Positions 2,371-63,908 are shown, counted from the first letter of the stretch. The stretch: 64,000 bases of DNA from Euglena gracilis (GCA_039621445.1 CP154954.1:17204589-17268588), one strand, 5' to 3'. Notes: generated by a model from the sequence alone, not told the origin. Numbers and translations: made by a program.

Positions 2371-3707
<1,337 letters not shown>

Positions 3708-17869: not shown

Positions 17870-19630
17870 CCACGGCCATTGGAGCCAGGGCCATTGGGGC
17901 CAACATTCTGCCAGTTACACCAATACCTTGTACAAGCTGGGCCATGGCGGCCACAACAGCAAGCTGGGCCATGGCGGCCAAAACAGCAATGGCCATGGCG
18001 GCCGATGGAACAAAGGCCAGGGTAGCCAACAATACCAAGGCCAGGGTGGCCAATTCCACAAACAGATGCCAGTGGCAGGGCCAGGACAGGTCAACAACAT
18101 CCCCCCAATCATTTCTTCATCTCAAACCCCATCAGGGGTACGGGATGGGTCCCCAGTGGCCCCCCAACATCGGCGCCCAACATCCAAAAGAAGTCAATGG
18201 GGACTATCAAAATTTCAAGAGTGGAGCCAACATCAAGAGGGCCAGTGGGGCCAGATTTATCATCAACTACATCAACAGTTTCAAGGCCACTGGGGCCATC
18301 AATTGTCAGAAGGGGAAAACCCCCAGAAGCTAACAGGCTGTCCCCCATCAGGGGGTTTCAATGTACGGTATCAGCCCCAGGAGGATGCCCGCAAAAAGGG
18401 GCAGTGGAGGACAAGGGGGTAACCCCCCCCTCAACATTCTTTGGCAATGCCCATGGCAGGGGCAAACCAAAACAAGGGGGAGACCCAAAAAGGGGCCCTA
18501 TGGTATGTCAATCGACAACACCAATGAACAAAGTGGAGGATCAGAGAGCCTGTGAGCAGAGCATGCACACCCCCCAGCCATCTTCAGAGAATGCTCAATC
18601 CCCAGAGGCACCAGTGGTGCAATGTCCAACACACCCAACCCAGCACCCAGAAAATCATCTAGTTGGGAAAATACATTCCATGGAGGAAAAATGGGGAGAC
18701 ACCCCCCTGTACCAGACACTTCAGAAAAGTCTAAAATGGTGGACAAAAAATGCCCCCCAAGAAACATGTCAATTGATGAAAAATGGAATTCAACCCCCCT
18801 GGGTTAATCCCCCAAAATTGTCCCCCCACACAAAACCCCAGGGCCAACCTGGACCTGAACCAAGCAGAAAAAATTCTGCTGGATTACAAAAAAACTGGGT
18901 ACAGTGAAACGAGTTTGGGATGCAGAAATCCATCATTTGATCCCATGGTTTTTCAATTTCACAACCAGAAGAGGGAACAACCAAATGGAGAATGACCAGC
19001 GACTGCAGAGAAAAAAATCAGCAGTTTTAAGTAAAACCGTTCAAGTTGGATCATATCCAAAACATTTTCCAGTTTTGGAAAAAGGCCACTGGGCAGCAAA
19101 AATAGACCTGAAGGATGCATATTTTCATATTCCATTAAGTCCAGGCCTGAGGCCATTTTTAAGGCATCAGGTGGGGGGGCAGACCTGGGAGTTTCAAACA
19201 GGCTGCTTTGGGCTAAATGTAACGCCCCAAATTTTCATGTCAGTGATGAAAACATTCAAAAAACTGTGGAGAAAAAGGGGCATCCAGGTGTTTATTTACC
19301 TGGACGACATTTTGCTGGTGGCTCCCACCCCAAACATTTTACAAAATCACCTGAAAACAGTTGTCAAAGATTTGCTGGATTCTGGGTTCAAAATCAATGT
19401 GAAAAAGTCCACCCTCCAGCCCACCCAAGTGGTAACCCATCTGGGTTTTCAACTGACACTTTCAGGAAGGAAAGCTACAGGTGCCCCCTCAGAAAGTCAA
19501 AACCATAAAAAAGGAGCTGGGAAAAATTGTGAAAAAAGATTGCGTGTCAAAAAAGCAGTTGGCTGCCATTTTGGGCCAAATAAGATGCAACCTAATGGCC
19601 CTGCCCTTTTTAAGGGCTTTTACAGACACC
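17870..19630 (+). mobile_element. DIRS-type (tyrosine recombinase) retroelement copy 1, left half: G/Q/H-rich ORF1 remnant and RT
   Basis: AAKIDLKDAYFHIP...FGLNVTPQIF...VFIYLDDILLVAP...GFKINVKKS.LQPTQ..THLGF, DIRS-type RT. Ends at the gypsy insertion. Removing the gypsy element and one CACC restores FTDTLA, matching FTDALA in copy 2. Confidence 0.9.
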
Positions 19631-20119
19631 TGTGAGTTAGGGGTGCTGAGTGCCCAAAACAACATAACTTAACACTACCCAACCTGATGACTCTGCAGTT
19701 AGGATTAGGAAAATCTTATTAGGAATTATAAATTACTGACTCCATCTGTCCCTGTGCAGGGCTCCGTCTCTCTGTCACACTGTCATTTTGTGGTTCAAGA
19801 ATTATCTGGTGAATTATCTGGAACCTATCGTTCTCTTACCCTTGGTTTGGACTTTGGTACTCTCACTTTGTGGTTTGCTTGTATTGTGCTGGTGGATTTG
19901 CTGATTGCTTGTGGATTTTTTATCAAAGGAAAGGTGTGAGCCAACCAACCCACCTGTTTTCACCCCCAAAAAAACCCGCAAAAACAAAAGAAAATGCATT
20001 TTTTAAAACAAAGCCGCGAGGGGAATTGAAAACACCCTGGGCAGGGTAAAAGATCCTACGCAAAGGGGTGCCGGCCCCGAGGGAATGGAAACTCAGGGAC
20101 AGGCACCACGGTTACAACA
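19631..20119 (+). repeat. 5' LTR (489 bp)
   Basis: TGTGAGTTAGGGGTGCTGAGTGCCC...CACCACGGTTACAACA. By hand, about 12 substitutions and 2 single-base indels versus the 3' LTR (~97% identity). Confidence 0.97.
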
Positions 20120-20131
20120 TGGTTGCAGAGG
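20120..20131 (+). promoter_or_regulatory. Primer-binding site (tRNA-Met(i)-like)
   Basis: TGGTTGCAGAGG directly abuts the 5' LTR. TGG complements tRNA CCA. One mismatch to the familiar initiator-Met PBS TGGTAGCAGAGG. tRNA identity is inferred. Confidence 0.8.
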
Positions 20132-20219
20132 TAGACTGCCCATTTTTGATTCCCCTCCAACATGCGGCTACGAACAACAAGCTGAAAAACGACAAGAAAC
20201 CGCAAAAACTGACGCTGAC

Positions 20220-23200
20220 ATGCCTGCTGCCTCAACTGCCATCGCTAGGATGGTGGAGCCGGCGGATGGCTGCCCAGCCCCGAACCAAACACTGGATGTG
20301 CCAACTGCCTTAACCGCCATCGTTAGGGTGGTGGAGCAGGCGGATGGCTTCCCAGCCCTGAACCAAACACTGGAAATGCCAGCTGCCTTAACCGCCATCG
20401 CGAGGGTGGTGGAGCCGGCAGATGGCTTTACCATGTACCAGTCACTGGACATCAACAGGTGGACTGAACCGGAACACAGACATTACAATGCCACGGACCT
20501 GTAATGACAGCCCACGTGTCATTGCCATGGTGCACATGGACCAGGACGACACCAAACAGACCGGTCCAGCACCAGATTACACAGAACTGGACGAAAACAA
20601 CGAACCGTACTCCGACGAACAGGTGTTTGCACCACAAAACTGGTACCAATTTCCAGAAACGGACACTCAGAACAACCAAAGCTGGCAAAGGGCAACAGCA
20701 CAGCAACCAGGAACCCAGAGTTTTGCACTGGTGGCGGTACGACAGAGCCCGGAACAACCAGACCGCCTCCAGGGTGAAACTGAAACTTCGTACCAGGAAC
20801 CCTCGTACAGTTCGTACGAGATTCCACAGCCGGAACCACAGAACCAGAACACTGACTGGGACTGGTGGTCGAACTTTGCGTACGAAACGGGACAGCTGAC
20901 CCAGTAATTGCAACAATTCAGATGCAAAACTGAACAGACGAACCAACAAACGGCAGAAACTCTGCAGCAGCTGCAACAAACAACGACGGAGTGGGTCAGC
21001 GAACTGCACGCCACAGTGAACAGACAGGGTGAAGCACTCATGACAGAAATAAACGGCAGACACGAAGAACTGACGACAGTCCTGGCCACAACGCAAGCAA
21101 ACATGGAACTGGTGACAGTGAACCAGAACAGGCTGTACCAGGAACATTTTAACGGAATGTCACAGCAGATCACAGAAATCAGGGAAATGTCTGGCTCACT
21201 GGGTGAAAAACTCAGGGAATTTCACAGTTTTCTGCAGATGGCAGGTGGAAACGCACAGAACCAGGGTGAACATCTGGATGGTTAACTACACCGACAGCGA
21301 GAAAACGAAAAAACAACTGCAGAACTGCAACAGAGATTGGCTGTGGTAGAAGAACGGGTCGCAGGAATCACAGGCGGAGTCCAAACGGTGAACAGCAAAG
21401 TGGACGAAGCTGTGGCAACAGTGTCCAGAAAAGTTGAAAACCTCGGAGGCGAAATCAGCAGTGTGGTGGAAAAAATTCTGAAGGACATGGGCAGTGAAAT
21501 CGAAAATCTGGCAGGACGGGTTCAGCAGCAGGAAACAAAAACGACAACAACAATTCAAAACTGTGATTACCTGCACAAAAAACTGGTCGAACTGCAGAAA
21601 ATCCCAGATCAGCAGCAGCAGATTACACAGCTGAACGAGGAAATCGGCAGACTGAAACGACAGGTGGAAACTCTGACCTCCAACGAAGAAAAACACAAAC
21701 AACGCACTGAACGTCTGAACCTGGAGGTCGGCAACCTGGGTCAGAGGGTGGACGAAACAGCCCAAACGGCTCAAAAACTGCTGGGTGAACAGCAAAAAGG
21801 GACCATTAAAACGGGAACACATGTCATATCTGAACATGCTAAATGGCTGGAAATGACATCTGCCATTGGCTCAATGACAACCAGGGTCGGTCAACTGGAA
21901 GCAAGACTGGCTGGTCTGACAACAAAAATGCAGAACGGGAAACACATGACAACGGCATTTGGCAGCATTTACATTCTCTGACCACGGAACTGCAAACACA
22001 GCAGAAACAGCGGACAGAACAGCTGGTGACCCTGGACAGAAAAATCAGTACTGTGACAAAAACGACTGAAAACCTGACTGAAAAACTGGAAAGGCAAAAC
22101 ACCCACTGCACAGGGGCCTTCGGGCCAGAGACAGGGGCCAACCCCCTGGCCAGTGGGCCTCCCTCGAGGACCCAGGCTGGACAGCCAGGGGCAGCCACTA
22201 CGGCCCAACGAACAGTACAACCCCCCCAGGGGGCAGACAGGGCCGCGGGCCAACGGGGATCGGGGACCCCACAACCCCGGAACCAAGCCCCCTGCAGCCC
22301 CGAGGGGCCATCCCACAGGACAACACGGGATTGGGACCCTAGAACCCCAGGCCTGGCCAACGGGGATGGGGACCCCACAACCCCTGGCCCAGCCACGGCC
22401 AGCCCTGAGAACGCCCGCAGAACCCCAGGCCTGTCAAACGGGGACGGGGACCCCACAACCCCTGACAGGTATGTTCAGCCAGAGCAGCCAGCACTGGGGG
22501 GACGAAACACCACACCCAAAAATGGAAGGAGGAGCTGCAGCATTGGGGACCGTTAACCCGGCTTCCCTGGTGAGGCAGCTCATCCGGCAAGAACTAAAAA
22601 CTGCCTTGACACCGTTAATTGCCCAACTGACTCGACAAACAGAACAACGGCCGACTGCAGTCCCGACCAGCCCAGCACTTACGACAAACCCGACAAGCCC
22701 AGCACCACAGCCAACCAAGCCGACTCAACAGATTTCACAGCCAGTGACGACACAACAAAACCCACAGTCCCGGACACGGGGCTTGTTCATGTGGGCGGAC
22801 GAAACTGAAACCCAGAACACAGCCACAACAACGTGGGTGGGACCCCAGATGGGGTCTACCCAAACTGCCATCCACCACATAGGAGAGGAAACAGTGGTGG
22901 CACCCGTGGCAACGGCCCCGACAGCATCCTTCGGGCTGCTGCTGGGTCCAGTGGGCGCGGCAATGACAAAAGACCTGGTAAGACCAACACTGCAGGGAAA
23001 TTTCGCAGATTTTGCCGTGAAATTTCTAATGTACCTGCAACGTGTGTCAGCCGGTCAGGGGTCCCTGACCGATGACCTGAAACTGTCACTGCTGGAGGGC
23101 AGCCTGGACAGTGCCAGCAAACTGGAACTACAACGCAGACAGGAACGCGGTGAGAAAATAAAATACCAGGAATTTTGGAACTGGATGTGCCAGAAATACG

Positions 23201-24462
23201 GTGGAGACACGCAATCAGCCATCAAAGACGAAATGCAAAGACTCAGCCAAAAAAACGGAAGGAAAACTGACACTGGAAGCGTGGAGGGAGTTTGAGGCCC
23301 ATTTCAAGCTCCTATACAGCAGGCGGGAGAATCCAGCAGAGGAAGACCTTACAACCTGGCGGCTGAAAAAATGCCTGAAACGCAACGCAGAAGCTGCATC
23401 ATGGAACAGGACCGCAGAAGTTAGGACAGACCGACACTGAAACTGAAAGGGGTTCCGAACATTACAAACGTCCCAGATGCAACAACGGAAGACGTTCGTG
23501 ACCTGGTGGCAGCAACTGTGGGCACAGGTGAAAAATTTCCGGTGGAACGGGACGGACAAAACTTCAGGATCAAACTGCACAGCAGCAGAGCTGCTGAACT
23601 GCTACTGATGAAAAACGGTTCAACGTTGCTGACTGGACACAAGCCACATTTCACACAGGTACAGGCCAAACTGACACTGGAAGAATTGTTCCAACGTGTG
23701 GAAACTGAACTCCGGTGCCAACAACAGTCAGACTCCCTTGGTAGGGGGTACAACGGCTGGCAGAACCAACCACGAGAAAACAGATCACGGTGGATGGACC
23801 GCAGGGAAGTCAAGGAGGAGGAGAAAACAAAATCCAGAAGTCGGACACCCCCTTCCAGATCCCGACCCAACTCCCCTGGACCTCGAACCCCAACACCCGA
23901 AAACCCCAGACCCCCTTCTCCACGCCAGCAGGTGCCCATGGCAGTTTCAGAACAGCCTTGCCAGGGACGGTACACCAACTGGTCAGACTGGGGACAAAAC
24001 GACTGGGGCAAAGGCAAAGGAAAGGGGAAATGTCAAAACTGGGGTTCAACCCAAAACTGGAATCAGAATTACGGCAAAGGCTACGATTCAGGAAAGGGAT
24101 ACAACTCTGGGAAAGGATACGATTCTGGGAAGGGGAGCGGGAAAGGAAAAGGCAAAGGGCAGCCACAGCCACAGCCTGCATCAACGAAAACTGAACCACA
24201 GCCACAACTCACAGGAGCCAGCCAACCAGCCACAGGGACAGCCAAAGACAGAAGCATCTTCCAGCAATCGCTGGCAGCCAGTTCAAAACATGGAACGGAA
24301 GTGAAGGGGCTGCGGCCTGAGGGTAGGGGGCGAGAGGGGCGACTCTCTGCAGACACAACCGAAACAACAAAACAAAACAAGGGAACCAGGTCCAGAGCCG
24401 CAGCGGTCATCAGGGTAGACGGGTCGTTTTTAAACAAGTTGTTTTTCAACAGCGTTTTTTAG
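20220..24462 (+). pseudogene. gag: gag-like ORF, fragmented: 78-bp repeats, long coiled coil, capsid-like helical domain, RRM-like domain, RS- and GKG-rich tail
   Basis: Successive + ORFs 20085-20504, 20422-20907, 20908-21285, 21337-21981 (heptad E/Q/L coiled coil), 22153-23295 (FADFAVKFLMYL...KLSLLEGSLD...YQEFWNWMCQKYG, retrotransposon capsid-like) and 23506-24462. Lies between PBS and pol. Broken by stops (e.g. TAA 20905, TAG 23422) and frameshifts. Start codon not resolved. Confidence 0.7.
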
Positions 24463-25871
24463 CAATCCGACAAAATGAAAACCGCCGAGCCGACATTCCC
24501 GACAACGAACCGACAGCGACTGCTGAAAACCAGCAATGCAGTTGCGCTGTAGCACCTTCTTTTTTGCCAGCCCGGATGAGAAAAGGAAACGATCTTCTTA
24601 TGCGAAAGTAATTTCCTTCCCCCAAAACAACTGCCAAGCAACCCCCTGTCGACTGCTCGCTGCGACGCGGAGCTCAGACCCCATACTGTTGCGACAGTTG
24701 AACGGGACAGTTTAACGGGGGAAAAAAAAGGTTGACATTTTTCCAGAAAGTCTTTCCAAGAATGTGCCAGGCAAAAGACAAATACTTGCTGCAACCTGTC
24801 GCCCAAAATTGGGAACCACCCGTGGCCAAAAATTGGAACCACCTGTGGCCAAAAAATGGCCAGCACGTCTGCCCAAAACTGCCCAAAACTGGACATTTCT
24901 GTGGCACAAAATTGGCCACCATCTGTGGCACAAAACAGGCCACCATCTGTGACACAAAACTAGCCACCATCTGACACAAAACTGGTGGCCCATCTTCTGA
25001 AGGCTTTTGCATCAGTTTTGAAATTTGTTGAGCTCTGGGGCAAAATCTGGGTGCATCATGGCCAAGGCCTGGGGCCCTGGGGCCACATCCTGAGAAAGAA
25101 TTTCTGGTTCCAAAATTTGCTGCCCAAAAAGCTGTCCTAGGTGCTGATCCAGGGCCCAGTTGTCTGAGACTTTTGTGCAGACTGCGTCTGCAGAATGTTT
25201 TTCTGGGATTTGTGCTGGAACTCGAAAAATTTTCATGTGTCAGTGTCAGCCCTGGGGCATTTTGAACCATTTTGACTTTAGTTTTGCTGAGCCCTGGGGT
25301 ACATTTTGCAGATTCAATGACAAAAGTCTTAAGCCCTGGGGCCATGGCAATTGTAACGTCTACAGTGTTCGCTATGTTACAACGCAGAAAACGTCGAAAT
25401 AAAGCTATCAGCCAGCTGTAGTTGTGGAGGGTGTTCTGGAACAACGAATAAGGGGTCACCAAACCCCAAAAGCGGCCGTTGACCATGAAGGAAGTAGAAG
25501 TAGAACTGCTGTTGATGATGAGGGTAACGTTGGTGTTCTTGCCATTCAAATCTTTGAGGGGCACCCGCCCCCTTTCCAGGCATGTGGTGTGCGAGAAAAA
25601 ATATACACACAGAAAGAGAGATATAAATTAAGAATTTAGTACTTCTTAATTCGCGATGTCATTCGACCGTAATCTACACGTTTTTTTGCTCTTCGACAAT
25701 TAAACACCTCGGAAACCGGTTTCCGACAAATAAACGTCATCCCCGCACACACTGGGTGATGAAGGTAAGAAAAAACCCCAAAAGAAAAACATCCTGACAA
25801 AAAAACGACTCCACAGCCCAGAACCGAAAAGGGAACAGGTCAGCCGCCGGTTCGGCAGAGCAGCTTCACAG

Positions 25872-26300
25872 TGGGTGTCTGAAAACTACCACGTGAAGGA
25901 AGAAAAAATGACAGGAATTCTCTCACACTTCGGGGTCCAGCCCCAGTTGGATGCCTTTGCAACGGAAAAGAACAAAAGATTCCCGCAATGGTGGGGATCG
26001 GGCAGCCCAGATGGAACTGACGCCTTTGAAAAAGACTGGCACGCAAAACTGCTGTGGATGAACCCACCATTCAGCAAAATTTCACAGGTGGTGAGGAAAA
26101 TACAAACAGACGAGGCCTATGCACTCCTCATGGTACCGAGATGGGTTCACAGACGATGGTACAGGGAAATCAAAAAGCGGGCAGTGATGTCAATGTTCAT
26201 CCCAGCGGGAACAAAACTGTTCGGACAGGGTGACAAGAACTGCAGGAATACACCGTGGCCTGTGGAAGTGTTTTTGGTATGCGGAGACAAAACACGCTGC
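25872..26300 (+). CDS. Amino (N6-adenine/N4-cytosine) DNA methyltransferase domain, DIRS/phage Dam-like, at the front of pol
   Basis: ORF 25875-26357: LDAFA (SAM-binding, D at 25950)...KN...DAFEKDW...LWMNPPF (catalytic NPPF, 26061-26072)...IxxVVxKI...ALLMVPRW...WY. Same motif chain as DIRS1 MT domains. Confidence 0.88.
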
Positions 26301-26521
26301 AAGTACCTTCCAGGTTTCCACAAACATTTCACCCCCTACACCCGACATCCAAGGTGAGGTTCGGCACAGCCCACGAGTACCCGCCAGCGGAGAACGAGGT
26401 GGACAGTGGTGAACAAAAAACCGACTTGGGGACAGAAAAACCATAGAAACGCATCAGAAAACTGCAGGAGGCAGCCACAGCGACACCAGAACGGGCCACA
26501 GCAGAAAAACCAAAACCAAAA

Positions 26522-27110
26522 ATGCTGGACCTGTTCTGTGGAACAAAATCGGTCAGCAAGGTGTATGAAAAAAGGGTTTCCAGGTGGTGACGGTTGATTC
26601 AGACCCCAGGTGGGAAGCGGATTACCAGGTGGACGTATTGGACTCGGACTTCAGAAAACATTTCAAACCTGGTGAATTCCACACGGTGGTGTGTGGAGTT
26701 CCCTGCACAGAATTCAGCATTGCCCTGACTACAAGACCCAGAAACCTGGAAAAGGGAAACAGTCTTGCAAAGAAAGCCCTGGAAATTGTGGATTTTCTGC
26801 AGCCGCAGAAATGGTGGTTGGAAAACCCAAGGTATGGATACCTGGGAAAACAAGATTACATGAAACCGTACCCGTACATTGACGTGGATTACTGTCAATA
26901 CACAGACTGGGGTTACAAAAAACCCACACGAATCTGGGGCAGCCCTGACATCCTGCAGGTACCAGCAAAACGGTGTGACGGGAAAACGTGCAAGAACCTG
27001 GACCCAAACAGTGGTGGTCACCTGGTAAAACTCAGCAACAAACACAACATTCCAGCCTTCAAAAAATTCAGGATCCCAGAACAACTGATTCAGGACCTGG
27101 CGGGGTTCCA
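26522..27110 (+). CDS. C5-cytosine DNA methyltransferase domain, with a 1-nt frameshift in an A-run near 26570
   Basis: Motif I MLDLFCGTKS (26522, other frame), then VTVD, DV(L), motif IV GVPCTEFS (catalytic PC 26701-26706), motif VI WWLENP (26821), DYCQY..GYKKPTRIWG (motif VIII-like) and C-terminal FRIPEQLIQDL. Same reading frame (26584-27732) as the downstream protease. Confidence 0.9.
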
Positions 27111-27359
27111 CGAACGGCTACGGCAAACCAGCCAAGCCCAGGCCGCACAGCAACAACCGCTGCAGCAGCCCAGCCCTGCCCAGACGGCACGACAAAACAT
27201 GCTCTCACAGCCCAGCCCAAAACTGGCAGGTCAACAGCCAAACCCAGATTCAACTGACAAAACAGATCCAGACCAAAACATTCGGCTTCCAAAACGACTG
27301 TGTGAACCGGTGTCCAAACTCCTGCTGGGGCAGGTCATCAGCAGAAAGAAAGCAAAAAA

Positions 27360-27680
27360 ACTCCTCATTGAAGTCCGTGCTGTGTTGCCGGACAGAAAAA
27401 AATTCTTCCTACAGGCCCTGATTGACACGGGAGCACAAGCAAACCTGGTGAAAAAGAACCTGATTCCACAACAAAATCTCAGACGTTCACAAAAACCCTT
27501 GGCCCTGATCACAGCGGACGGAACAAGGATGGAAGAAGGACTACACGAAGTCGCACTGGAACTGCAGTTTTCATCACGGGTGCACAACACGGACAGAACA
27601 AGGAATGGTCCACCATTGGAACATTCCATGACGCCGCCATCCAAGTGGATGCCATCCTCGGGTATCCGTGGATGTGGATG
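27360..27680 (+). CDS. Retroviral-like aspartic protease domain (frameshifted near its end)
   Basis: LQALIDTGAQANLV (DTG at 27424), ALITADGT, and DAILGYPW in the next frame. Confidence 0.92.
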
Positions 27681-28099
27681 GAACAACACCAACTGGGGGT
27701 TTTCCCACACCTACAATCATTGGCCCTCATAGGTGAATCACTGCGGCTGTTGTCCAGTTGGCACCAGCTGAAGGAACAAAAACACAGGGAACGGAAAGTA
27801 CACCAACTTCAGAAAAACATTTCAGAGGTTCGAGCAATGAATTTGCAGGTTCCTGCTGAAGCGGACCAGGAGGAGGAAAAACTGTTCGAAGACGAAAAAA
27901 CGCCCGAAACACTGGCAAAACAATTTCAGAAATCGGAAAAGAAATCTGACAGGGTCCACCGTGTTGTGGTGGTGCCAGAAGGACAGGAAACACAAGGCGA
28001 AAAGGTGGCTGAACTGGTGAAAAAACTGCAGCAGGATTATGAAGGAGTGGTTTTGCGAGACAAAATCTTCCCAGACCCCCCAGAACGCGGACCACTGGG

Positions 28100-28900
28100 T
28101 TATGGGAAAATCGAACTGAAACCTGGAACAGTTGCGAAAAAGCAAAGACCCATCCACATGACAGGACAACGCCGACAAGCACTCATCGACATGGTGGACG
28201 AATGGGTTAGGGACCTGAAAGTGGAAGACGGAAGTAGTGACTGGTCCAGCCCCACATTTGTGGTGGCCAAAAAAGGTGAAAAATGGAGAGGGGTGGTGGA
28301 TTTCAGAGCACTGAACGAGGCAACAATCACAGACGCCCATCCACTCCCTAGGAAAGAAGACATCCTAGTTCAACAAGGACAACGGGCCATGTACAGTGTA
28401 CTGGACCTAAAAGACGCCTTCCACCAGGTGCCACTGAGAACGGAGTCCAGACCATACACCTGCACACCTAAGGGAACAAAACAGTGGAGAGTGGTGGTCA
28501 TGGGAATGAAAAACGGTGTACCGATCTTCCAGAGGGTGATCGAGTACAGCCTGGAGGAGGTACATGATATTGCAAACCCCTACGTGGACGACATCATCGT
28601 AGGAACCATGTGGCAGGGAACTGAAGACAAAACCCTCAAACAACACGACAAGGACATCAGAAGGGTGATGGAGGCACTGAAAAAAACAGCAGCACGTGGC
28701 AGACATCAAGAAATGCAAATTTTTCGTGAAAGATGTGGAATTCTGTGGACACGTGCTCGGTGGTGGACAACGAAAACCTGCACCTGGGAAACTGATGGCC
28801 TTGGAAAAATGGGAGGAACCCAAAACGGTCACAGCCCTGCGGGCATTCCTGGGATTCACAAACTACTACGCCTCATACGTCCCAGGGAATGCGGAATTGG
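28100..28900 (+). CDS. pol: Ty3/gypsy reverse transcriptase domain
   Basis: IELKPG...WSSPTFVVAKK...WRGVVDFRALN...PLP...LDLKDAFHQV...MGMKNG...FQR...YVDDIIV (28581)...KKCKF..VEFCGH...LRAFLGFTNYY. Frameshift in A-run near 28680. Confidence 0.96.
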
Positions 28901-29044
28901 CTGCAGACCTAATGGAAAAACTGAAAGTGAAAAAGGGACAAGGAAAGAAGGGAGCCTGACACATGTGTTTTTCGGTGAAAAAAAAAAAGAACAGCCTTCC
29001 AGACCATCAAAGAAAAACTGCTCGGAAGCCTGAAACTGCAAACG

Positions 29045-29500
29045 GTGAACCCAGACAAACCGTTCATACTCAGGGTGGATTCAAGTGGCAGAGCCGTAGG
29101 TGCGGCTCTGGAACAATTTGCGGAGGACACTGCAGAAAAACCAGACCCAACAACAGCCATGACCAAAAAAACAGTACCCGTAGCTTTCTGTTCACAAAAC
29201 CTGACACCTGGGCAGGTCCGCTCGTGGTCTCCTAGGGAGAAGGAGACCTACGCAGTGATCCTGGCCCTGCAAAAATGGGCTTCCTGGATAGGAATGCAAC
29301 CGGTACTGGTGTTGACAGACCACAAGTCCATTGAGGCATGGGCAACGGAGGCGCTGGACACCCCCAGTGGACCAGCTGGACGTAGGGCTAGGTTGCACGA
29401 ACTGCTTTCGCGGTTCGACATAACCGTAGCATACGTACCTGGCAAAGACAACACGGTCGCTGATGCCTTGAGTAGGTGGGCCTACCCCGCCTCACAGGCA
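29045..29500 (+). CDS. pol: Ty3/gypsy RNase H domain
   Basis: PFILRVDSSGRAVGAALEQ...PVAFCS...WSPREKETYAVI...LTDHKSI...YVPGKDNTVADALSR. Confidence 0.95.
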
Positions 29501-30109
29501 TTCGCCGACGTCAGTATCCACGGGAGTGAGGAGGACGACCGACTCATGAAAGAAATCATCAAACAGGAGGAAAAGGAACAGAAAACTTGTATGGTGATCA
29601 ACGTGCAGACCTGGCACAGGCACTAAAACAGCTTCAGGAACCCGTCACTGTTGCCGTCACAACAAGGGGGGGAGCCAAAACGGGTGAAGATACGCCCACA
29701 GTGCCTGGTTCGACGAAAAATGGTGACACCCCTCAAAAGAATCAAAAACACCTCAAAAACCTGCAAAAACGACAAAGAAATGGGTTGTGAAGGAAACGAC
29801 TGTGGTGGAACCAAGCAAAAAACTGGCTGAGGCAACCCCAAGGGAGACCACGGATGAGGCGGGAAACCTGATCCGACCAGACCAACCAAAAAACAAAACC
29901 CCAGAAAATCCAAACACGGCCGAGGGACCATCCACTGAGGAAGACCCACCAAGGCGAAGACCCCTGGAAGAGAACCCCTGTGGAACCCCTGACAACAAAA
30001 AACTCAACAAAACACCAGGACGCGCAAGGTGCGTCATCCTCAACGGGGACACCCGTTGTACCTCCATCAAGGGGAGTGCACGCCCCGGAGCTTCAACAGG
30101 GGGAATCGA

Positions 30110-31320
30110 AAGGGGTGATGTACAGGGAATGGAAGAACGAGTACGAAAGTTGCCCAAGGTGGGGACCTGTGCTCAAGAACCTGAAGGAAACGGGGTTCAA
30201 AAACTGGCCTGACGGGTACCGATTCGACAACGGCATGCAGTACAAAAACGGTCTCCTGTGTGTACAAACTGGGTTGACTGGAAACGTAATTCGGGAACAT
30301 CACAAAACAGCCGGGCACCCAGGGTCAGCCCGACTGTGGGACCAGATGGGAAGGTGGTTTGCGTTTGCGGACCACCAGGATGCAAAAAAACTGACAGGCG
30401 AAATGATGACCATGTGTGAAACCTACCAAGCAACAGAACCCAGCCACCTACCATACAAGCGCCCCATTGAACCGACACCGATTCCTGCACACCTGATGGA
30501 CAGTGCTGCCATCGACTTGTTCTCACTTCCTGAAACGACCTTTGAAGGGAAAAAATACGACACGTTGGCGTTGTTTGTGGACAGGCTGAGTGGGTGGATG
30601 GTTGCAACCCCCCACCTGGCCAAGGTACTCACAGCGGAAAAGGTTGGAAAAGAAAAATGTTCAAACAGTGGGGAATTTTCGGGATACCCTTGGTGGTGAG
30701 CTCCGACCGGGGCTCCCACTTCACAGCCGGTTGGTGGAAAACACTGTGTGCTGCCCACGGGGTCCGTGTGGCATACGGGCAGGCATACCACCACCAAGCC
30801 AACGGACGGGCTGAGGTAGCGGGTCAACAACTCCTCCGAAAACTGGCAAAACTGGCTGCTGAAAAAGGGGTACCCTGGGTTGAACTCCTACCGAACGCCT
30901 TGAGGCCCTACACGACGTCCCAGGTGAAACGGGATTGACACCGTACGAAATTGTGTTTGGCAGGCACAGACCGTTGGCGGGATTGCCATACCAACCACAA
31001 AGGGAAGCGGAAGGGGCCACAGCGTTCTTGTAAAGGATGAAGGAACAAGACCAGTGGGCGAGTCTGGTCCTGAACGAAAAACAGCGTGAACGGGCTGAAA
31101 CGGTGAACCAAAAACGCAGAGAACCACCTGCCTTGGAAATCGGTTTCAAAGTGTGGTATCAACCCGAAAGACAACCTGGTACCGACAAACTCGAACCGAA
31201 GTGGAAAGGACCTGCTGTGGTGTTGGAACGGGTAGGACAGCACTCCTACGTGCTGGAACTTCGACCCGGAAACCGAAAACCTGCCCACCGTTCACAACTC
31301 AAACCCCACGTGGAGGACCT
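30110..31320 (+). CDS. pol: Integrase (HHCC zinc finger, DDE core, GPY/F module), frameshifted
   Basis: IREHHKTAGHPG...MCETYQ (second Cys altered), AAIDLF...VDRLSGW, VSSDRGSHF...YHHQANGRAE, KLEPKWKGPAVV. Confidence 0.93.
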
Positions 31321-31389
31321 CTACAACACAACTCCTGTCCCCCTCTACTTTTGGTCGGGCAAGGCACAACAGTTGGAGGTCGGACCTGA

Positions 31390-31597
31390 CGAGTGGGAGG
31401 TTGAAAAGGTGCTTAACCACCGTAGAAAAGACGGAAAACTTAAATTGTTTATTCTGTGGAAAAACTGGGACCCATATGATACTCAGTGGGAACCCCTGAA
31501 CCACTTCTTCCTCCGGACAAACAAAGATGTGGTCCAATACTGCAAAGAACGAGGCTTGGCCGTGGATGTGAGAGAGTTGCTTGATGGGATGGAGTGA
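31390..31597 (+). CDS. Chromodomain at the integrase C-terminus
   Basis: EWEVEKVLNHRRKDGKLKLFILWKNWDPYDTQWEPLNHF, then stop TGA at 31595. Canonical chromodomain pattern with aromatic residues at the cage positions. Confidence 0.92.
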
Positions 31598-32718
31598 CAC
31601 ATGTCACATACCCCTGGGCCCCCTCACAGACACCGTCACGTCGACACCCCGAACGACCCTAAAGCCAACCCCAACCCTACCACCCATACCGACCTCGACT
31701 GACTTGAACTTGCACACCTCTGGCAAAACCTGCCTGACTCAAAACGACAAAACGGGCCTGGGCAGCCCACCCGGCCAGCCCACCTGAACCTGAACCGCTG
31801 GCCAGCTCAACTCGAACCAGCCCAACAGACCTGAACAAGACCCGACCCGACCCGAATTCACTGACCTCAAGTGCCACTCTTCTGCCAATCAATCCATTCT
31901 TCAAATCTTCATCGTTGTTGTTGTGGGTTGGGTGGAGAACGAACCTACCCCTGAACTTGGCCAGCCTACCTAAAAAAAAACAACAACAAAACACAGCCCC
32001 CAACCCCAACCGTAACAGCCAGCAAAAACTGGGCAAACCGTGGAAGGGGAATCTGATTTTGACACAAAAACGCAGACCTGACCGACCCCGGGCCACCGGC
32101 CTGGGGGGGGGGAGGACCCTCCACAGCACCTACACACACCAGTCTACCCCCCAGAAAAAAATACAAAAATACAAAAAAAAACATTGTCCTTGACCCAGCC
32201 TGATTTTTAACCGAAAACCAGCCTTCACCTGATTTTTATAAAAATTCGTCCCCGGCCGGAGCCTGGCCACTTGGCCTGGGGGGGCTGGAAGACCCCAGCT
32301 GGACCCACCCCCCACCGAACGGACAGCAACCCCAGACACCGTATTGGCAAACCGAACCGAAAACGGCTGTCTAGGAGCCTGACCGTGACAAAACAACTCA
32401 CCTGGCCTGGGAATAAAAATTTCCTCAAAATTTTGACCGTGGCTGGCGCTTGGTTCACAACGGCGCCTGCCCCCCCCCCCAACGCCAAACAGCGCTAGGC
32501 GGGCTGGGGGGGGGACAACACACCAGACCCCGCACAGACCCAACTGCCAAAGGAGAACATTTGACTCAGCCCCCTGGTCAGAAAACGAACCTGAACGGCA
32601 CAGCCCCCTGAGGGGGGGGGACCCTGAACAACGGTCCCCTTGCTCGCCCCCTCCTCACAACGAGTGCACTCCGCACCCCTTCCTGTTGGAGTCGTGAAGA
32701 GTTGTAAACAACTCCTTC

Positions 32719-32729
32719 GGGAAGGGGAG
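32719..32729 (+). promoter_or_regulatory. Polypurine tract
   Basis: GGGAAGGGGAG immediately before the 3' LTR. Confidence 0.9.
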
Positions 32730-33216
32730 TGTGAGTCAGGGGTGCTGAGTGCCCAAAACATCATACCTTAACACTACCCAACCTGATGACTCTGCAGTTA
32801 GGATTAGGAAAATCTTATTAGGAATTATAAGTTACTGACTCCATCTGTCCCTGTGCAGGGCTCTGTCTCTCTGTCACACTGTCAGTTTGTGGTTCAAGAA
32901 TTATCTGGTGAATTATCTGGAACCTATCGTTCTCTTACCCTTGGTTTGGACTTTGGTACTCTCACTTTGTGGTTTGCTTGTATTGTGCTGGTGGATTTGC
33001 TGATTGCTTGTGGATTTTTTATCAAAGGACAGGTGTGAGCCAAACAACCAACCTTTTTTCACCCCAAAAAAACCCGCAAAAACAAAAGAAAATGCATTTT
33101 TTAAAACAAGCCGCGAGGGGAATTGAAAACACCCTGGGCAGGGAAAAAGATCCTACGCAAAGTGGTGCCGGCCCCGAGGGAATGGAAACTCAGGGACAGG
33201 CACCACGGTTACAACA
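32730..33216 (+). repeat. 3' LTR (487 bp)
   Basis: TGTGAGTCAGGGGTGCTGAGTGCCC...CACCACGGTTACAACA, followed by the TSD CACC. Confidence 0.97.
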
Positions 33217-34880
33217 CACCCTGGCAATTTTTTTGGTGGCGGAGTCCACATCCCCCTGGGACTCAAAACACCCCATTTCCCAGGAAATCAAGGCCCAATT
33301 AAAGGAAATAAAAATTCTGCTGGACACCTGGGGGGGAAGACCCTTCCCCCAAAATGCATCCAGAGTGTTGCTCTCAGACAGCAGCACGCATGCCTGGGGG
33401 GGGGGCTGGACATCAACACAGGAGAGATTGTGCAGGAATTTTGGAGAAAAAACTCCTTTTTGCACATCAATGTAAAGGAGCTCAGTGCAGCAATCAACAC
33501 TGTGAAAAGTTTGAGCAAACCTGGAGAAACCGTTTCCTTGTCAGTGGACAACCAGGTAATTTACTTTTACCTAACAAAAGGTTGGGGCAGAAAGGACCCC
33601 TTCAACAAAATGCTGAGACCATTTTTCAAGTGTTGCATGGAGCACCAAGTAAACCTCCAAGGCAACTGGGTACCTTAAAAAGACTGCCTAGCAGACCCCC
33701 ATCAGCAGATAGAAAATGGACAGGGGGTATTATTCTTTAGACCCCAAACTTTTTCAATGGCTCAGCAAGCAATTCACAAATTTCATAAGTCTGGAAACAG
33801 ATTTATTTGCCTCCCAGGCAACAAAAACTGCCCAATTTTGTGGCCAGGTGGCCCCATTGGGAAGCCACAGCAGCAGTAAATAAATGCATTACAATGTCCA
33901 CTGGACAACATGGGGGATCTTTATGCAAACCCCCTCCGGTCAATAATTCAACAATTTCTACCCAGGTTGAAAATGTTTAACCAGACCAAAGTTTTCATGG
34001 TCACCCCCAACTGGGATTCAGCCACACGGTGGCCCAAATTAATAAAAATGAAAGTTCCAGGGACCCCCTGCCTGAAACTCACCCCCACAGGGGCATGTTC
34101 ACCAACTGCAGGGGGGAGCAAATGCCACCCCCCAGGTGGCCCCTGGCTTGCATGATTTGCTCAGGCAAATTTTGGAGGGGAAACAAATTCAGGTTGAGAC
34201 CATTAACGATTCCCTGGGGAGAAACCCAAGCTTAAAACGTTGTCAGAGTGCTTTTGCACTTCTGTGGGTAATTTTAGAACACAGCCCCCCCCCCCTGAAG
34301 CCACCACAGACCAAGTGGCTGACGCTTTAATTCAATTCTTCCAATTTTCAAAGGCCTGTGGACCTGGTGGCCCCCTCCTAATTTCATTAAAACCCCCCTT
34401 CAGGGCCATCAGTGCAGGCACCATTTCTTCCATCACAAAAGATTTTTTGGCCAAACATGGTGTACCCCCCAGGTGGGGGGGGCCCACTCCACCGGAGGGG
34501 CAGGAGTTGGTTTACTCAAAAAATTGGGACTTTCTGCCCAAGAAGTTTGTGAAATTGGCCCGTGGAAGGGGGTGGAGGCTTTTGCAGCCCACTATCAACG
34601 ACTTGGTGCCCAAGGTGCCCTGGAAAATGCCCTGGCCCCCCTAATTTCAGTGCACAATCTGTCTCGTACTCCCTCGAGGAAAACCGAGAAGGGAGGAAGG
34701 GACACCGAGGCCGAAGCACAAAGACCTTGTGAGCCCGACCCCCTCTACCCGTAAAAGAAAATTTGTGTTCAAGAGCCCTCGGTCAGAGAGTGGGGGCCAG
34801 GGGGGGGGGAGAGGGGTTTGCGAAAAGTGCTTTTCTTTTTTTAACAAAGCAGTGATTTTTCATCTCTGCATCCTTCGTAG
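33217..34880 (+). mobile_element. DIRS-type retroelement copy 1, right half: RNase H, amino-MTase, internally deleted tyrosine recombinase, terminal sequence
   Basis: RH: LSDSSTHAWG, HINVKELSAA, SVDNQVI. MT: DLFAS (33800), DLYANP (33922), MVTPNW..W. YR C-terminus: ISAGTISSITKDFLAKHGV..AHST(R>G)GAGV...GPWKGVEAFAAHY (HY 34590). Many frameshifts; right end approximate. Confidence 0.85.
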
Positions 34881-38900: not shown

Positions 38901-39350
38901 AAGGACCGTGGCCGTCACTGGGGGGGGTTTTGGGCTGTGAAATTTCTGGGGTGGGGGGCTGGGTGGGAAGAACGGCCACGGTTTGCCACGTGTTGACCGC
39001 ATCTCCAAGGTCTCCTTCTGCTGCGGCCACTCCTCCAGGACGTCCGTGGCCATATAATTCCAATTTCTTCTCCACTGCATTGCTCATCGAAGTCGAATTT
39101 GACAATTGAATTCTCAATTGATTTTCGTCTGGTTCGTGTTCTTCTCTTCCCAGTTCTTCCTCGTTCGTGAACTCTGTTCCTGTCTTCTGGGTGTCGAAGG
39201 GCAAGTTAAGAATCAGCCAACTCCGGCGAAAAAAGGCACTAAGCGGGACCTCCTAACCCAGCGCACCAAAACAATCACAACAAACCGCCGGCGAGCGAGG
39301 CATGGCCTCACAATGGCAAAGTGCGGAGCCCGAGGTGTCCACTCCCACCC
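36000..39350 (-). mobile_element. DIRS-type retroelement copy 2, inverted, degraded toward its 3' end
   Basis: ORF1 38080-39204. RT ORF 37020-38309 closely matches copy 1 (AAKIDLKDAYFHIP, FIYLDDILL). Continues IRCNLMALPFLRAFTDALA and RH LHSDSSTHA. DNA similarity to copy-1 MT region extends to ~36000. Confidence 0.9.
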
Positions 39351-39499
39351 CCACCGCCCCACCCGCGGACTAGTCTCCTGTACCACGCTCCTGGAGCATC
39401 ATCCGGGCCCCGGGTAGGCCCCTTGGAGGCAGGGCCATCGTGGCCCTGTCGGCCTTGGGCATTGCATGACGTGGGGCACTTCTAATCCTAATCCCAATC

Positions 39500-47472: not shown

Positions 47473-63908
<16,436 letters not shown>

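What the first reader, a model, noticed from the sequence alone, without database searches (positions are those of the whole stretch)
25872..31597. Ty3/gypsy chromodomain retrotransposon whose pol carries two DNA methyltransferases (amino-MTase and C5-MTase)
Seen: between the LTRs, directly upstream of the protease, are an NPPF amino-MTase (25872-26300) and a complete C5-MTase motif set (LDLFCG, PC, ENP; 26522-27110). The C5-MTase is in the same frame as the protease DTG. The amino-MTase is joined to it by a ~70-codon charged linker broken only by one frameshift and one TAG (26444). Known: amino-MTase domains are a hallmark of DIRS1-type elements, not gypsy. C5-MTase capture by retrotransposons has been reported in dinoflagellates and charophyte algae. 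I do not know of an LTR element with both classes plus a chromodomain. Inference: one polyprotein MT(N)-DNMT-PR-RT-RH-IN-CHD would put two DNA-mark writers and a histone-mark reader in the particle. It could methylate its own cDNA or insertion site to mimic host marks or regulate itself.
Basis: partly seen in the sequence, partly recalled or inferred. Interest (0 to 1): 0.95.

Follow-up and report, generated by a model that had tools for sequence, protein, structure and literature searches.

The report
LTR retrotransposon carrying two DNA methyltransferases
This is a real but decayed copy of a gypsy-type jumping gene whose enzyme gene also encodes an adenine and a cytosine DNA methyltransferase plus a chromatin-reading domain, a design already described in a 2026 preprint, probably for this same organism.

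Summary
A 13,586-bp LTR retrotransposon (19631-33216) has 489-bp LTRs that are 97% identical, TG..CA ends and a 4-bp target duplication. It sits inside a DIRS-like element. Its pol reads Dam-like MTase, linker, compact C5-MTase, protease, RT, RNase H, integrase, chromodomain.

Both MTases belong to the family and are not a one-off insertion. A 91-95% identical database protein (P0157) reads MTase-linker-DNMT-protease as one open frame. A 42-58% identical protein (P0004) has the same order.

The window copy is broken by at least 8 frame changes and one TAG.

The architecture is not new. A May 2026 preprint names such elements "EpiLTRs" in Euglena gracilis and Cymbomonas. The flanking DIRS reverse transcriptase is 92% identical to a Euglena transcript product, so this is probably the reported Euglena lineage.

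New here:
- The DNMT module's closest relatives outside retrotransposons are in virophage, giant-virus and other virus-like contigs.
- Retrotransposon-borne and virus-borne copies separate on a single tree branch.
- The module occupies at least three positions in pol across environmental relatives.

Enzyme activity is untested.

The parts
19627..19630 (+). Left copy of the 4-bp target-site duplication (CACC)
   Evidence: The same four bases follow the 3' LTR. The inverted paralogue of the host DIRS element (reverse complement of 36825-36895) runs straight through the site with a single 4-bp target.
19631..20119 (+). 5' LTR, 489 bp, starts TGTGAG and ends ACAACA
   Evidence: 97.1% identical to 32730-33216.
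20120..20137 (+). Primer-binding-site-like stretch that starts with TGG directly after the 5' LTR
   Evidence: sequence only. It was not matched to any tRNA.
20221..20454 (+). Three copies of a 78-bp tandem repeat in the leader
   Evidence: family D3.
21286..24459 (+). Gag-side open frames of unknown family (21286-21978 coiled-coil-like, 22078-23292, 23425-24459 with a KG-rich tail)
   Evidence: There is no Pfam family for 22078-23295 or 23425-24462. 21286-21978 gives only sub-threshold coiled-coil matches. There is no similarity to any session protein. Calling these gag rests on position only.
24460..25859 (+). Unassigned 1.4 kb with no sense-strand open frame
   Evidence: The 317-aa antisense frame at 24677-25627 has only one sub-threshold Pfam match (Papilin_u7, E=0.0041, 18.1 bits against a cut-off of 27), which I take as noise. 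It fits the A-rich sense strand.
25875..26335 (+). Dam-like (DIRS-type) N6-adenine methyltransferase domain, with catalytic NPPF at 26061-26072
   Evidence: Pfam Dam E=1.2e-8, 35.3 bits against a cut-off of 28.1. The alignment to P0157 is.
26336..26521 (+). Charged linker, reached by a frameshift at a run of five C (26332-26336) and holding an in-frame TAG at 26444-26446
   Evidence: P0157 reads through with Q at the TAG position.
26522..27110 (+). Compact C5 cytosine methyltransferase domain. Motif I is at 26525-26542. A frameshift lies near 26567-26575 at an A run. Motif IV (PC) is at 26695-26718, ENP at 26818-26838, PTRIWG at 26923-26940, the Cys/His cluster at 26974-26997 and FRIPEQL at 27067-27087.
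   Evidence: The fold of relative P0001 matches solved DNMT3, DIM2, DNMT1 and M.HhaI structures.
27301..27600 (+). Aspartic protease, with D-T-G inside IDTGAQ at 27421-27438
   Evidence: Pfam gag-asp_proteas E=6.5e-4, below its cut-off. It is collinear with P0004, P0005 and P0080.
27606..28960 (+). Reverse transcriptase (YVDD at 28581-28592), read in two frames that change near 28690
   Evidence: RVT_1 E=1.9e-19. tblastn of P0080 and P0075. Motif position.
28979..29626 (+). RNase H
   Evidence: RT_RNaseH E=1.1e-18 and RT_RNaseH_2 E=1.7e-17.
30070..30938 (+). Integrase (zinc-binding part at 30268-30366, catalytic core at 30666-30791), with a frame change near 30650
   Evidence: Integrase_H2C2 E=0.0024 and rve E=2.8e-5, both below their cut-offs. 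It is collinear with P0080 at 43-62% identity.
31034..31597 (+). Integrase C-terminal SH3-like part and chromodomain (31394-31498)
   Evidence: Chromo E=4.4e-7, 30.2 bits against a cut-off of 25.1. SH3_Tf2-1 E=1.4e-5.
32719..32729 (+). Polypurine tract (GGGAAGGGGAG) directly before the 3' LTR
32730..33216 (+). 3' LTR
33217..33220 (+). Right copy of the target-site duplication (CACC)

Best explanation
Shown: the locus is one decayed copy of a Ty3/gypsy-type, chromodomain-bearing LTR retrotransposon spanning 19631-33216. In this family pol begins with a Dam-like adenine methyltransferase and a compact C5 cytosine methyltransferase, upstream of protease, RT, RNase H, integrase and chromodomain. 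This is the 'EpiLTR' design of the 2026 preprint. The copy inserted into a DIRS-like element with a 4-bp duplication. It now carries at least 8 frame changes and one stop.

Inferred mechanism for intact family members:
1. The two methyltransferases are translated as the N-terminal part of Pol.
2. They are packaged with it into the particle and released by the protease.
3. They act on the newly made cDNA, or on the RNA:DNA hybrid, before or at integration. The new copy therefore arrives already carrying 5mC at CpG, and possibly 6mA.
4. In a host whose genome is CpG-methylated by default, this would make the copy look like resident DNA.
5. The integrase chromodomain steers insertion into repeat-rich, heterochromatic DNA.

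I put about 0.9 on the identity and architecture. I put about 0.35-0.4 on cDNA self-methylation as the actual function.
For: Structure of the element:
- LTRs are 489 bp and 97.1% identical.
- TG..CA ends, a TGG-starting stretch after the 5' LTR and a polypurine tract before the 3' LTR.
- A CACC duplication, with an empty-site paralogue that runs through the insertion point.

Domains:
- Pfam hits on the window's own frames.

The MTases are integral to the family:
- P0157 (544 aa) is 91% identical over the MT and 95% identical over DNMT-PR. It reads MT-linker-DNMT-PR in one frame and passes both Pfam cut-offs.
- P0004 (891 aa) is collinear MT-DNMT-PR at 42-58% identity.
- P0080 reads DNMT-PR-RT-RH-IN-chromo in one 2513-aa frame.
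- Of the 202 proteins held, 58 join the DNMT to other retroelement modules, and 15 carry both MT and DNMT.

The DNMT looks catalytically competent:
- The PC cysteine and the ENP glutamate are invariant in 27 of 27 aligned sequences and in 49 of 49.
- The model of P0001 has mean pLDDT 85.7. Its top structural matches are all C5 DNA methyltransferases, at Foldseek probability 1.0 and E about 1e-8.
- NPPF is kept in the MT.

Host context:
- CpG observed/expected is 0.52 over the window.
- The flanking DIRS RT is 92% identical to the product of EG_transcript_6737, an identifier style used in Euglena gracilis papers (listing only).
- The preprint reports near-default CpG methylation in E. gracilis and Euglena LTR elements with DAM, DNMT and chromodomain.
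- This copy sits inside another transposon, which fits chromodomain targeting (n=1).
Against: - No single database protein or contig shows all seven modules with the MT. P0157 and P0004 stop in or just after the protease, and P0080 has no detectable MT. Only the broken window copy shows the full set.
- P0157's own frame departs from the window's reading after the protease's first 20 or so residues and ends 13 residues later. No fully intact copy was seen.
- Gag was not recognised by any family model, and 1.4 kb (24460-25859) is unassigned.
- No enzyme activity was tested here.
- The preprint's expression of other eukaryotic DAM domains in E. coli gave no 6mA.
- The 2018 paper's yeast assays were inconclusive for SymbioLINE and KnitGypsy DNMTs (passages only).
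- CpG depletion in the element (0.59) is no stronger than in the window as a whole (0.52). This gives no sign of extra self-methylation.
- Reads and genome copies could not be examined.
Confidence: 0.85

Rival explanations
1. The MTase block is a one-off. On this view a fragment of another element (for example a DIRS element or a viral insertion) nested into this single gypsy copy, or the block is an assembly chimera. The 'polyprotein' would then be an accident.
For: - The element lies inside a DIRS-like element that has its own MT-like domain.
- 1.4 kb just upstream of the MT is unassigned.
- The preprint warns of nested insertions and chimeras in Euglena.
Against: - P0157, from a separate contig, reads MT-linker-DNMT-PR in one frame at 91-95% identity.
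- P0004 and seven other proteins show MT then DNMT in one protein.
- The flanking DIRS MT has no significant similarity to this MT. The best other window hit has E=0.49.
- No internal repeats or duplications bracket the block.
Confidence: 0.03
2. The domains are integral and conserved, but they do not methylate the element's own cDNA. They could act on host chromatin around the insertion or on transcribed copies (6mA as an 'active' mark). They could methylate RNA. Or they could serve mainly as nucleic-acid or SAM-binding modules.
For: - The preprint links DAM-LTRs to raised 6mA on insertions and, in ichthyosporeans, to higher expression. It found no activity for DAM domains in E. coli.
- The 2018 paper raises RNA methylation as a possibility for SymbioLINE DNMT.
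- The DNMT here lacks a normal target-recognition domain. A short Cys/His-bearing loop takes its place.
- CpG depletion in the element is not above background.
Against: - The catalytic residues of both domains are conserved.
- Their position upstream of the protease in Pol places them in the particle with RT.
- SymbioDIRS-DNMT3 copies did methylate CG de novo in yeast.
- None of this separates cDNA from other targets.
Confidence: 0.3
3. The copy is less broken than it looks. Some or all of the frameshifts would be homopolymer errors of the assembly, and the locus would be a recently active, nearly intact element.
For: - The two frameshifts that could be placed against P0157 lie at a run of five C and at a run of A followed by G.
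- Both indels between the two LTRs are also in homopolymer runs.
- Only one in-frame stop was seen between MT and PR.
Against: - The LTRs differ at 14 of 489 positions, mostly by substitutions, so the copy is not very young.
- The TAG at 26444 is a substitution.
- Eight frame changes in 5.7 kb match the indel rate seen between the LTRs.
Confidence: 0.15

Closest known systems
Euglena gracilis 'EpiLTR' / Euglena DAM-LTR group (bioRxiv 10.64898/2026.05.21.726589, May 2026; sections 6-10 read)
   Same: - It is an LTR element encoding a chromodomain together with both a DAM and a DNMT domain.
- The host has near-default CpG methylation.
- The window is probably from the same species.
   Different: The text does not give the domain order for the Euglena elements, and I could not see the supplementary figures or sequences. 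Identity with the published family is therefore inferred, not shown. The preprint places the EpiLTR DNMT as sister to DNMT4. Here its nearest relatives outside retrotransposons are viral.
Cymbomonas tetramitiformis EpiLTR (same preprint)
   Same: It is a chromovirus-like LTR element with DAM, DNMT and chromodomain.
   Different: There the DNMT is appended to the 3' end of pol. Here MT and DNMT sit at the 5' end of pol, before the protease.
KnitGypsy-Dnmt3 of Klebsormidium nitens, and SymbioDIRS-Dnmt3 / SymbioLINE-Dnmt of Symbiodinium (de Mendoza et al. 2018, PMC5890265; passages read)
   Same: The cytosine methyltransferase lies inside retrotransposon coding regions, with conserved catalytic residues. 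Self-methylation of cDNA was proposed there as well.
   Different: - Those elements carry DNMT3-type or orphan DNMTs and are not described with an adenine MTase. A search of that paper for 'chromodomain' found 0 occurrences.
- The module here is a roughly 220-aa compact DNMT with a Cys/His cluster in place of a full target-recognition domain.
DIRS-type retrotransposons with a Dam-like MT domain
   Same: They share the Pfam family (PF05869) and the NPP(F/Y) catalytic motif.
   Different: This element has direct LTRs, a 4-bp duplication and a DDE integrase. It does not have a tyrosine recombinase or the split or inverted repeats of DIRS. Its MT is not similar to that of the DIRS element it landed in.
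Small C5-MTases of virophage, polinton-like and giant-virus contigs (environmental; L009-L128)
   Same: They share the compact domain, the same motifs (PCTEYS, ENPR, GYxKPTRIW, C..C..H), and 27-38% identity.
   Different: They are stand-alone genes in low-GC, gene-dense viral contigs. They sit on the other side of a single well-supported tree branch.

Membership tests
Ty3/gypsy (Metaviridae) LTR retrotransposon, chromovirus type | Direct LTRs with TG..CA ends and a 4-6 bp target duplication | tested here: met
   489-bp LTRs, TG..CA ends, a CACC duplication and an empty-site paralogue.
Ty3/gypsy (Metaviridae) LTR retrotransposon, chromovirus type | Pol order PR-RT-RH-IN | tested here: met
   Pfam and collinear tblastn with P0080.
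Ty3/gypsy (Metaviridae) LTR retrotransposon, chromovirus type | Chromodomain at the integrase C-terminus | tested here: met
   Chromo 30.2 bits against a cut-off of 25.1, at 31394-31498.
Ty3/gypsy (Metaviridae) LTR retrotransposon, chromovirus type | Recognisable Gag (capsid or zinc knuckle) | tested here: inconclusive
   No family model matched the upstream ORFs, and there was no similarity to the N-termini of relatives.
Ty3/gypsy (Metaviridae) LTR retrotransposon, chromovirus type | RT branches inside the chromovirus clade | not tested
EpiLTR (preprint 10.64898/2026.05.21.726589) | DAM, DNMT and chromodomain in one LTR retrotransposon | tested here: met
   for the domains. for the LTRs.
EpiLTR (preprint 10.64898/2026.05.21.726589) | DNMT groups with the published Euglena and Cymbomonas EpiLTR DNMTs (sister to DNMT4) | not testable with these tools
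   The published sequences and Supplementary Fig. 2D were not available. The window piece's best match to a solved sequence is DIM2 at E=0.25, which says little.
C5 cytosine DNA methyltransferase (PF00145) | Motifs I (FxGxG-like), IV (PC), VI (ENV/ENP) and VIII (R-containing) | tested here: met
   LDLFCGTKS, GVPCTEFS, LENPRYG and KKPTRIWG. PC and E are invariant in 27 of 27 sequences and 49 of 49.
C5 cytosine DNA methyltransferase (PF00145) | Score above Pfam's gathering cut-off | tested here: inconclusive
   - Window piece without motif I: 17.5 bits, below 22.
- Intact copy P0157: 22.6 bits.
- Relatives P0072, P0075 and P0080: 29.1, 27.2 and 25.3 bits.
C5 cytosine DNA methyltransferase (PF00145) | Class I MTase fold of DNMTs | tested here: met
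   The model is of relative P0001, which is 64% identical to the window domain. Mean pLDDT is 85.7. The top hits are DNMT3B, DNMT3A, DIM2, DNMT1, M.HaeIII and M.HhaI, at E about 1e-8 and TM about 0.48.
C5 cytosine DNA methyltransferase (PF00145) | 5mC-forming activity | not testable with these tools
   This needs an enzyme assay.
Dam-like N6-adenine MTase (PF05869), DIRS-type MT domain | Score above the cut-off and the catalytic (D/N)PP(Y/F) motif | tested here: met
   35.3 bits against 28.1. NPPF at 26061-26072.
Dam-like N6-adenine MTase (PF05869), DIRS-type MT domain | 6mA-forming activity | not testable with these tools
   The preprint's E. coli assays of other eukaryotic DAM domains were negative.
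DIRS retrotransposon | Tyrosine recombinase and split or inverted terminal repeats | tested here: not met
   The element has a DDE integrase (rve, H2C2) and plain direct LTRs. It is therefore not a DIRS element.

The most novel reading that the evidence does not exclude
The C5-MTase module of these retrotransposons is not a derivative of a host DNMT family. It belongs to a compact, Cys/His-bearing DNMT family otherwise found only in viruses of protists (virophage, polinton-like and giant-virus contigs). A single exchange between such viruses and a Ty3/gypsy lineage would have founded a large retrotransposon clade that is widespread in the environment. Within that clade the module later moved to at least three positions in pol (before PR, after PR, and between RH and IN) and was paired with a Dam-like MTase in several orders.
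Probability: 0.5. Interest if true: 0.6.

Novelty: already known. Interest (0 to 1): 0.4.

Why it matters
A mobile element that carries writers of two DNA marks and a reader of a histone mark can, in principle, set its own epigenetic state instead of waiting for the host to do so. This bears on how transposons persist in heavily methylated genomes.

The design itself has been in print as a preprint since May 2026, so this locus is an independent confirmation and not a discovery.

- The DNMT module shares a family with DNMTs of protist viruses and separates from them on one tree branch.
- No relative turned up in 185,579 prokaryote species genomes by the family's signature pattern.
- Environmental relatives show several module orders, including 15 proteins that carry both MTases.

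If these points hold, they sharpen the question of where retrotransposons obtain epigenetic enzymes. They also widen the known range of such elements beyond two species.

Tried and rejected
- Whole genome of the window: none is held. Copy number, a consensus and Ka/Ks among copies could not be done.
Expression, base modification and the homopolymer frameshifts therefore stay unchecked.
- Earlier findings of this scan: three look-ups returned nothing.
- ESM Atlas for P0157: no usable hit.
- Rfam on the whole window: 0 matches.
- Gag: no family for the upstream ORFs and no similarity to relatives' N-termini.
- Idea that the MT was copied from the DIRS element the copy sits in: rejected, because there is no significant similarity.
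- Idea that the 317-aa antisense ORF at 24677-25627 is a gene: rejected as a by-product of the A-rich sense strand. Its only Pfam match (Papilin_u7, E=0.0041, 18.1 bits against a cut-off of 27) is sub-threshold and I read it as noise.
- Bacterial or phage origin of the DNMT:
  - The signature-pattern scan of prokaryote genomes gave 5 pattern matches and 0 relatives. This scan is limited to that pattern.
  - Bacteriophage records gave 26 weak matches, the best at 29.7% identity and E=2e-10.
- Pfam on 20 ORFs of virus-like contigs:
  - Only 2 of 10 had hits at E<=1e-5. These were a Sputnik-type capsid in L079 and a D5-like primase in L067.
  - 3 of 10 had hits at E<=1e-3, none of them a virus hallmark. 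For most contigs the 'virus-like' label therefore rests on low GC, gene density and presence in IMG/VR.
- A first attempt to compare the two MT domains failed on a stop codon in my coordinates. It was replaced.

Full report
**1. What is in the sequence**

Self-comparison of the window finds two direct repeats, 19631-20119 and 32730-33216, that are 489 bp long and 97.1% identical.
- They begin with TG and end with CA.
- The left one is followed by a stretch starting with TGG. The right one is preceded by the purine run GGGAAGGGGAG.
- The four bases CACC flank the pair on both sides.

The sequence outside the repeats is a DIRS-like element: RVT_1 at 18859-19632, with RNase H-like and MT-like frames after 33217. 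An inverted paralogue of that element lies at about 36323-38327. It runs straight through the insertion point with a single 4-bp target. The unit is therefore a 13,586-bp LTR retrotransposon that inserted cleanly into another transposon.

**2. Domains**

Pfam on the window's own open frames gives the following.

| Domain | E-value | Bits (cut-off) | Position |
|---|---|---|---|
| Dam | 1.2e-8 | 35.3 (28.1) | 25911-26222 |
| DNA_methylase | 0.0029 | 17.5 (22), below cut-off | 26659-26826 |
| RVT_1 | 1.9e-19 | | |
| RT_RNaseH | 1.1e-18 | | |
| Chromo | 4.4e-7 | 30.2 (25.1) | 31394-31498 |

An aspartic protease, Integrase_H2C2, rve and SH3_Tf2-1 also match, all below their cut-offs.

Motif positions:
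- NPPF at 26061-26072
- LDLFCG at 26525-26542
- GVPCTEFS at 26695-26718
- LENPRYG at 26818-26838
- PTRIWG at 26923-26940
- IDTGAQ at 27421-27438
- YVDD at 28581-28592

The upstream 5.7 kb holds a 78-bp tandem repeat, several open frames with no family match, and 1.4 kb with no sense-strand frame. Gag is not recognisable.

**3. State of this copy**

Three-frame translation and alignment to close and distant relatives show that pol changes frame at least eight times between the MT and the chromodomain. There is also one in-frame TAG, at 26444-26446.

It missed a second shift near 26570, between DNMT motif I and motif IV. Only motifs IV to X share the protease's frame.

The two shifts that can be placed against the 91-95% identical protein P0157 lie at homopolymer runs. 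The two indels between the LTRs do as well. Some of these shifts could be assembly errors. Reads could not be consulted.

**4. Are the methyltransferases part of the family?**

Yes. The evidence is as follows.
- A word-index search with the MT frame returned one longer protein, P0157 (544 aa, from a 3.5-kb contig). It is 91% identical over the MT and 95% identical over DNMT-protease.
- P0157 reads MT, linker, DNMT (with motif I in frame) and the start of the protease as one open frame. It has Q where the window has TAG.
- P0157 passes both Pfam cut-offs, with Dam at 31.9 bits and DNA_methylase at 22.6 bits.
- P0157's frame ends 13 residues after it departs from the window's protease reading, so that copy is not complete either.
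- P0004 (891 aa) is collinear MT-DNMT-PR at 42-58% identity.
- P0080 (2513 aa) reads DNMT-PR-RT-RH-IN-chromodomain in one frame.

No single relative shows the MT together with RT, IN and chromodomain.

The MT is not a piece of the DIRS element that hosts the insertion. The best other match in the window has E=0.49.

**5. The DNMT module**

The 194-aa piece finds 1748 representatives at E<=1e-3, 750 at E<=1e-10 and 104 at E<=1e-30.

Alignments of 27 and 49 members keep the PC cysteine, the ENP glutamate, the K-P-T of GYxKPTRIW, and a C...C...C...H set.

A profile of the family reaches solved DNMT1 structures only weakly. The best E is 3e-4, and 16 of the 17 listed sequences are DNMT1.

An AlphaFold model of P0001, which is 64% identical to the window domain, has mean pLDDT 85.7. 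Its best structural matches are all C5 DNA methyltransferases: DNMT3B, DNMT3A, DIM2, DNMT1, M.HaeIII and M.HhaI, at E about 1e-8, probability 1.0 and TM about 0.48.

This is a genuine but compact C5-MTase, about 220 residues long. A short Cys/His loop sits where larger enzymes have a target-recognition domain. Zinc binding is my inference.

**6. Relatives and module orders**

Among the 202 proteins held:
- 140 show the DNMT alone.
- 58 join it to other retroelement modules.
- 4 are cluster mates without a DNMT match.

Fifteen proteins carry both MT and DNMT, in these orders:

| Order | Number |
|---|---|
| MT-DNMT(-PR) | 8 |
| PR-DNMT-MT or DNMT-MT | 4 |
| DNMT-PR-MT | 1 |
| MT-PR-DNMT | 2 |

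Five proteins place the DNMT after RNase H, and one of these continues into integrase and chromodomain. Almost all are from metagenomes. One (P0072) is filed under the plant Genlisea aurea, on a 2.5-kb contig.

**7. Viral kin of the DNMT**

A metagenome scan gave 101 relatives, of which 80 were kept.
- 5 of the 80 have protease or RT beside the DNMT.
- 10 of the 80 have GC of 0.46 or more.
- 70 of the 80 have GC of 0.23-0.42 and are gene-dense.

Among the low-GC loci, L079 encodes a Sputnik-type virophage capsid (E=4e-86), L068 encodes a relative of that capsid, and L067 encodes a D5-like primase. Most other ORFs have no family match.

IMG/VR holds 48 relatives at 27-38% identity. Four are on contigs named as giant-virus bins, and several are on contigs of 170-200 kb.

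A Symbiodinium protein annotated as a DNMT (P0193) joins this domain to a Pox_A32-type ATPase.

The family's signature pattern found no relative in the prokaryote genome collection: 5 pattern matches and 0 confirmed. Bacteriophage records match only weakly.

**8. Trees**

Selection of rows:
- Domain stretches covering HMM positions 30 or lower to 178 or higher were kept. This left 187 of 326 sequences.
- These were thinned at 75% identity to 147.

Results:
- A FastTree tree splits the 147 rows into two sides, with support 99. One side has 50 rows: 20 IMG/VR, 13 low-GC metagenome, 17 unlabelled and 0 retrotransposon-linked. The other side has 97 rows: 44 retrotransposon-linked, 52 unlabelled and one long-branch IMG/VR row.
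- An IQ-TREE quick search under a site-mixture model used 77 labelled rows. The 69 unlabelled rows and the long-branch row L119 were left out. It puts the 44 retrotransposon rows and the 33 viral rows on opposite sides of one branch, with SH-aLRT 99.

The tree is unrooted, so the direction of transfer is open. The window's family sits in a group with P0158, P0004, P0160 and P0159.

**9. Host**

The paralogous DIRS RT frame at 37023-38327 (minus strand) is 92% identical, over 36% of its length, to a EukProt protein named EG_transcript_6737. Identifiers of that form occur in 10 papers that also name Euglena gracilis (listing only).

CpG observed/expected is 0.52 for the window, 0.59 for the element and 0.24-0.42 for the DIRS flanks. 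This fits a CpG-methylated genome.

I take the source to be Euglena gracilis or a close relative. No host gene in the window confirms this. A cyclase-like exon at 56608-57192 scores only E=0.0073.

**10. What is in print**

The preprint 10.64898/2026.05.21.726589 (abstract and sections 6-10 read) reports the following.
- Dam-like domains occur in Ty3/gypsy-type LTR elements, with at least four transfers from DIRS.
- Elements that combine DAM, DNMT and chromodomain are named 'EpiLTRs'. They are reported in Cymbomonas tetramitiformis (DNMT at the 3' end of pol) and in Euglena gracilis (described as a 'structurally distinct configuration').
- The EpiLTR DNMTs form one group that is sister to DNMT4.
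- CpG methylation is near-default in E. gracilis.
- Other eukaryotic DAM domains showed no 6mA activity in E. coli.

A full-text search for 'EpiLTR' finds only this preprint. Its supplementary figures and sequences were not seen, so I cannot show that this element is one of theirs.

De Mendoza et al. 2018 (PMC5890265; passages read) described DNMTs in Symbiodinium DIRS and LINE elements and in a Klebsormidium gypsy element. They proposed cDNA self-methylation and noted that a virus might have been the DNMT source.

A search for virophage, cytosine methyltransferase and retrotransposon together found 4 papers. None appears, from title or abstract, to make the link drawn here (listing only).

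**11. Mechanism**

Shown: the order of modules, their conservation, and their position upstream of the protease in one Pol frame in relatives.

Inferred:
- The two enzymes enter the particle as part of Pol and are freed by the protease.
- They mark the cDNA or RNA:DNA hybrid with 5mC, and perhaps 6mA.
- The chromodomain directs integration to heterochromatin.

The single insertion seen here lies in another transposon, which fits that targeting but is one case only. The alternatives in which the enzymes act on chromatin after integration, or on RNA, cannot be excluded.

**12. Verdict**

This copy is a decayed member. The architecture has been in print since May 2026, probably for this very organism, so I rate it already known.

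The viral kinship of the DNMT module, and the variety and environmental spread of module orders, are additions worth checking against the preprint's data.

Noticed in passing
window 18026-19630 and 33217 to about 34800; inverted paralogue at 36323-39252: Two copies of a DIRS-like element carry RVT_1 (E about 1e-22). One of them is split by the LTR element. Its MT-like stretch reads YANPL at 33919-34056 where NPP(F/Y) would be expected, so it looks degenerate. CpG observed/expected is only 0.24-0.42 in these flanks.
   Followed up: partly
L079 (12494-14257, minus strand), L068, L067 (2473-4920): Environmental contigs that carry the same compact DNMT as a stand-alone gene also encode a Sputnik-type virophage major capsid protein (L079, E=4e-86, with a relative in L068) or a D5-like primase-helicase (L067).
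   Followed up: partly
P0193 (NCBI, Symbiodinium microadriaticum, 385 aa): A protein annotated as a putative cytosine-5 methyltransferase joins this compact DNMT to a Pox_A32-type packaging ATPase. This suggests a viral or polinton-like insertion in that genome and not a host DNMT.
   Followed up: no
P0072 (NCBI EPS62093.1, Genlisea aurea, 2.5-kb contig): An MT-PR-DNMT protein is filed under a carnivorous plant. The preprint reports no DAM-LTRs in streptophytes, so the contig may come from a trapped or associated protist.
   Followed up: no
P0154 (1848 aa), P0008, P0161, P0106, P0176: In some environmental relatives the DNMT sits between RNase H and integrase. In others it follows the protease, with the Dam-like MT after it. 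The module has therefore moved within pol.
   Followed up: partly
window 2367-3707; 39499-40267; 52399-53573: There are three large simple or tandem arrays: a 12-bp unit in about 112 copies, a 342-bp unit in 2.2 copies, and a roughly 1.2-kb C-rich tract with strong GC skew.
   Followed up: no
window 15393-15472 (+): ARAGORN calls a tRNA-Gly with anticodon ACC. This is the only tRNA call in the window, and Rfam finds nothing there. It may be a pseudogene or a SINE-like sequence.
   Followed up: no
window 56608-57192 (-): An open frame gives a weak adenylate/guanylate cyclase catalytic-domain match (E=0.0073, below the cut-off). It is the only hint of a host gene in the window.
   Followed up: no
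window 24677-25627 (-): A 317-aa stop-free antisense frame lies inside the element. Its only Pfam match is sub-threshold (Papilin_u7, E=0.0041, 18.1 bits against a cut-off of 27). It is most likely a by-product of the A-rich sense strand and short internal repeats.
   Followed up: partly
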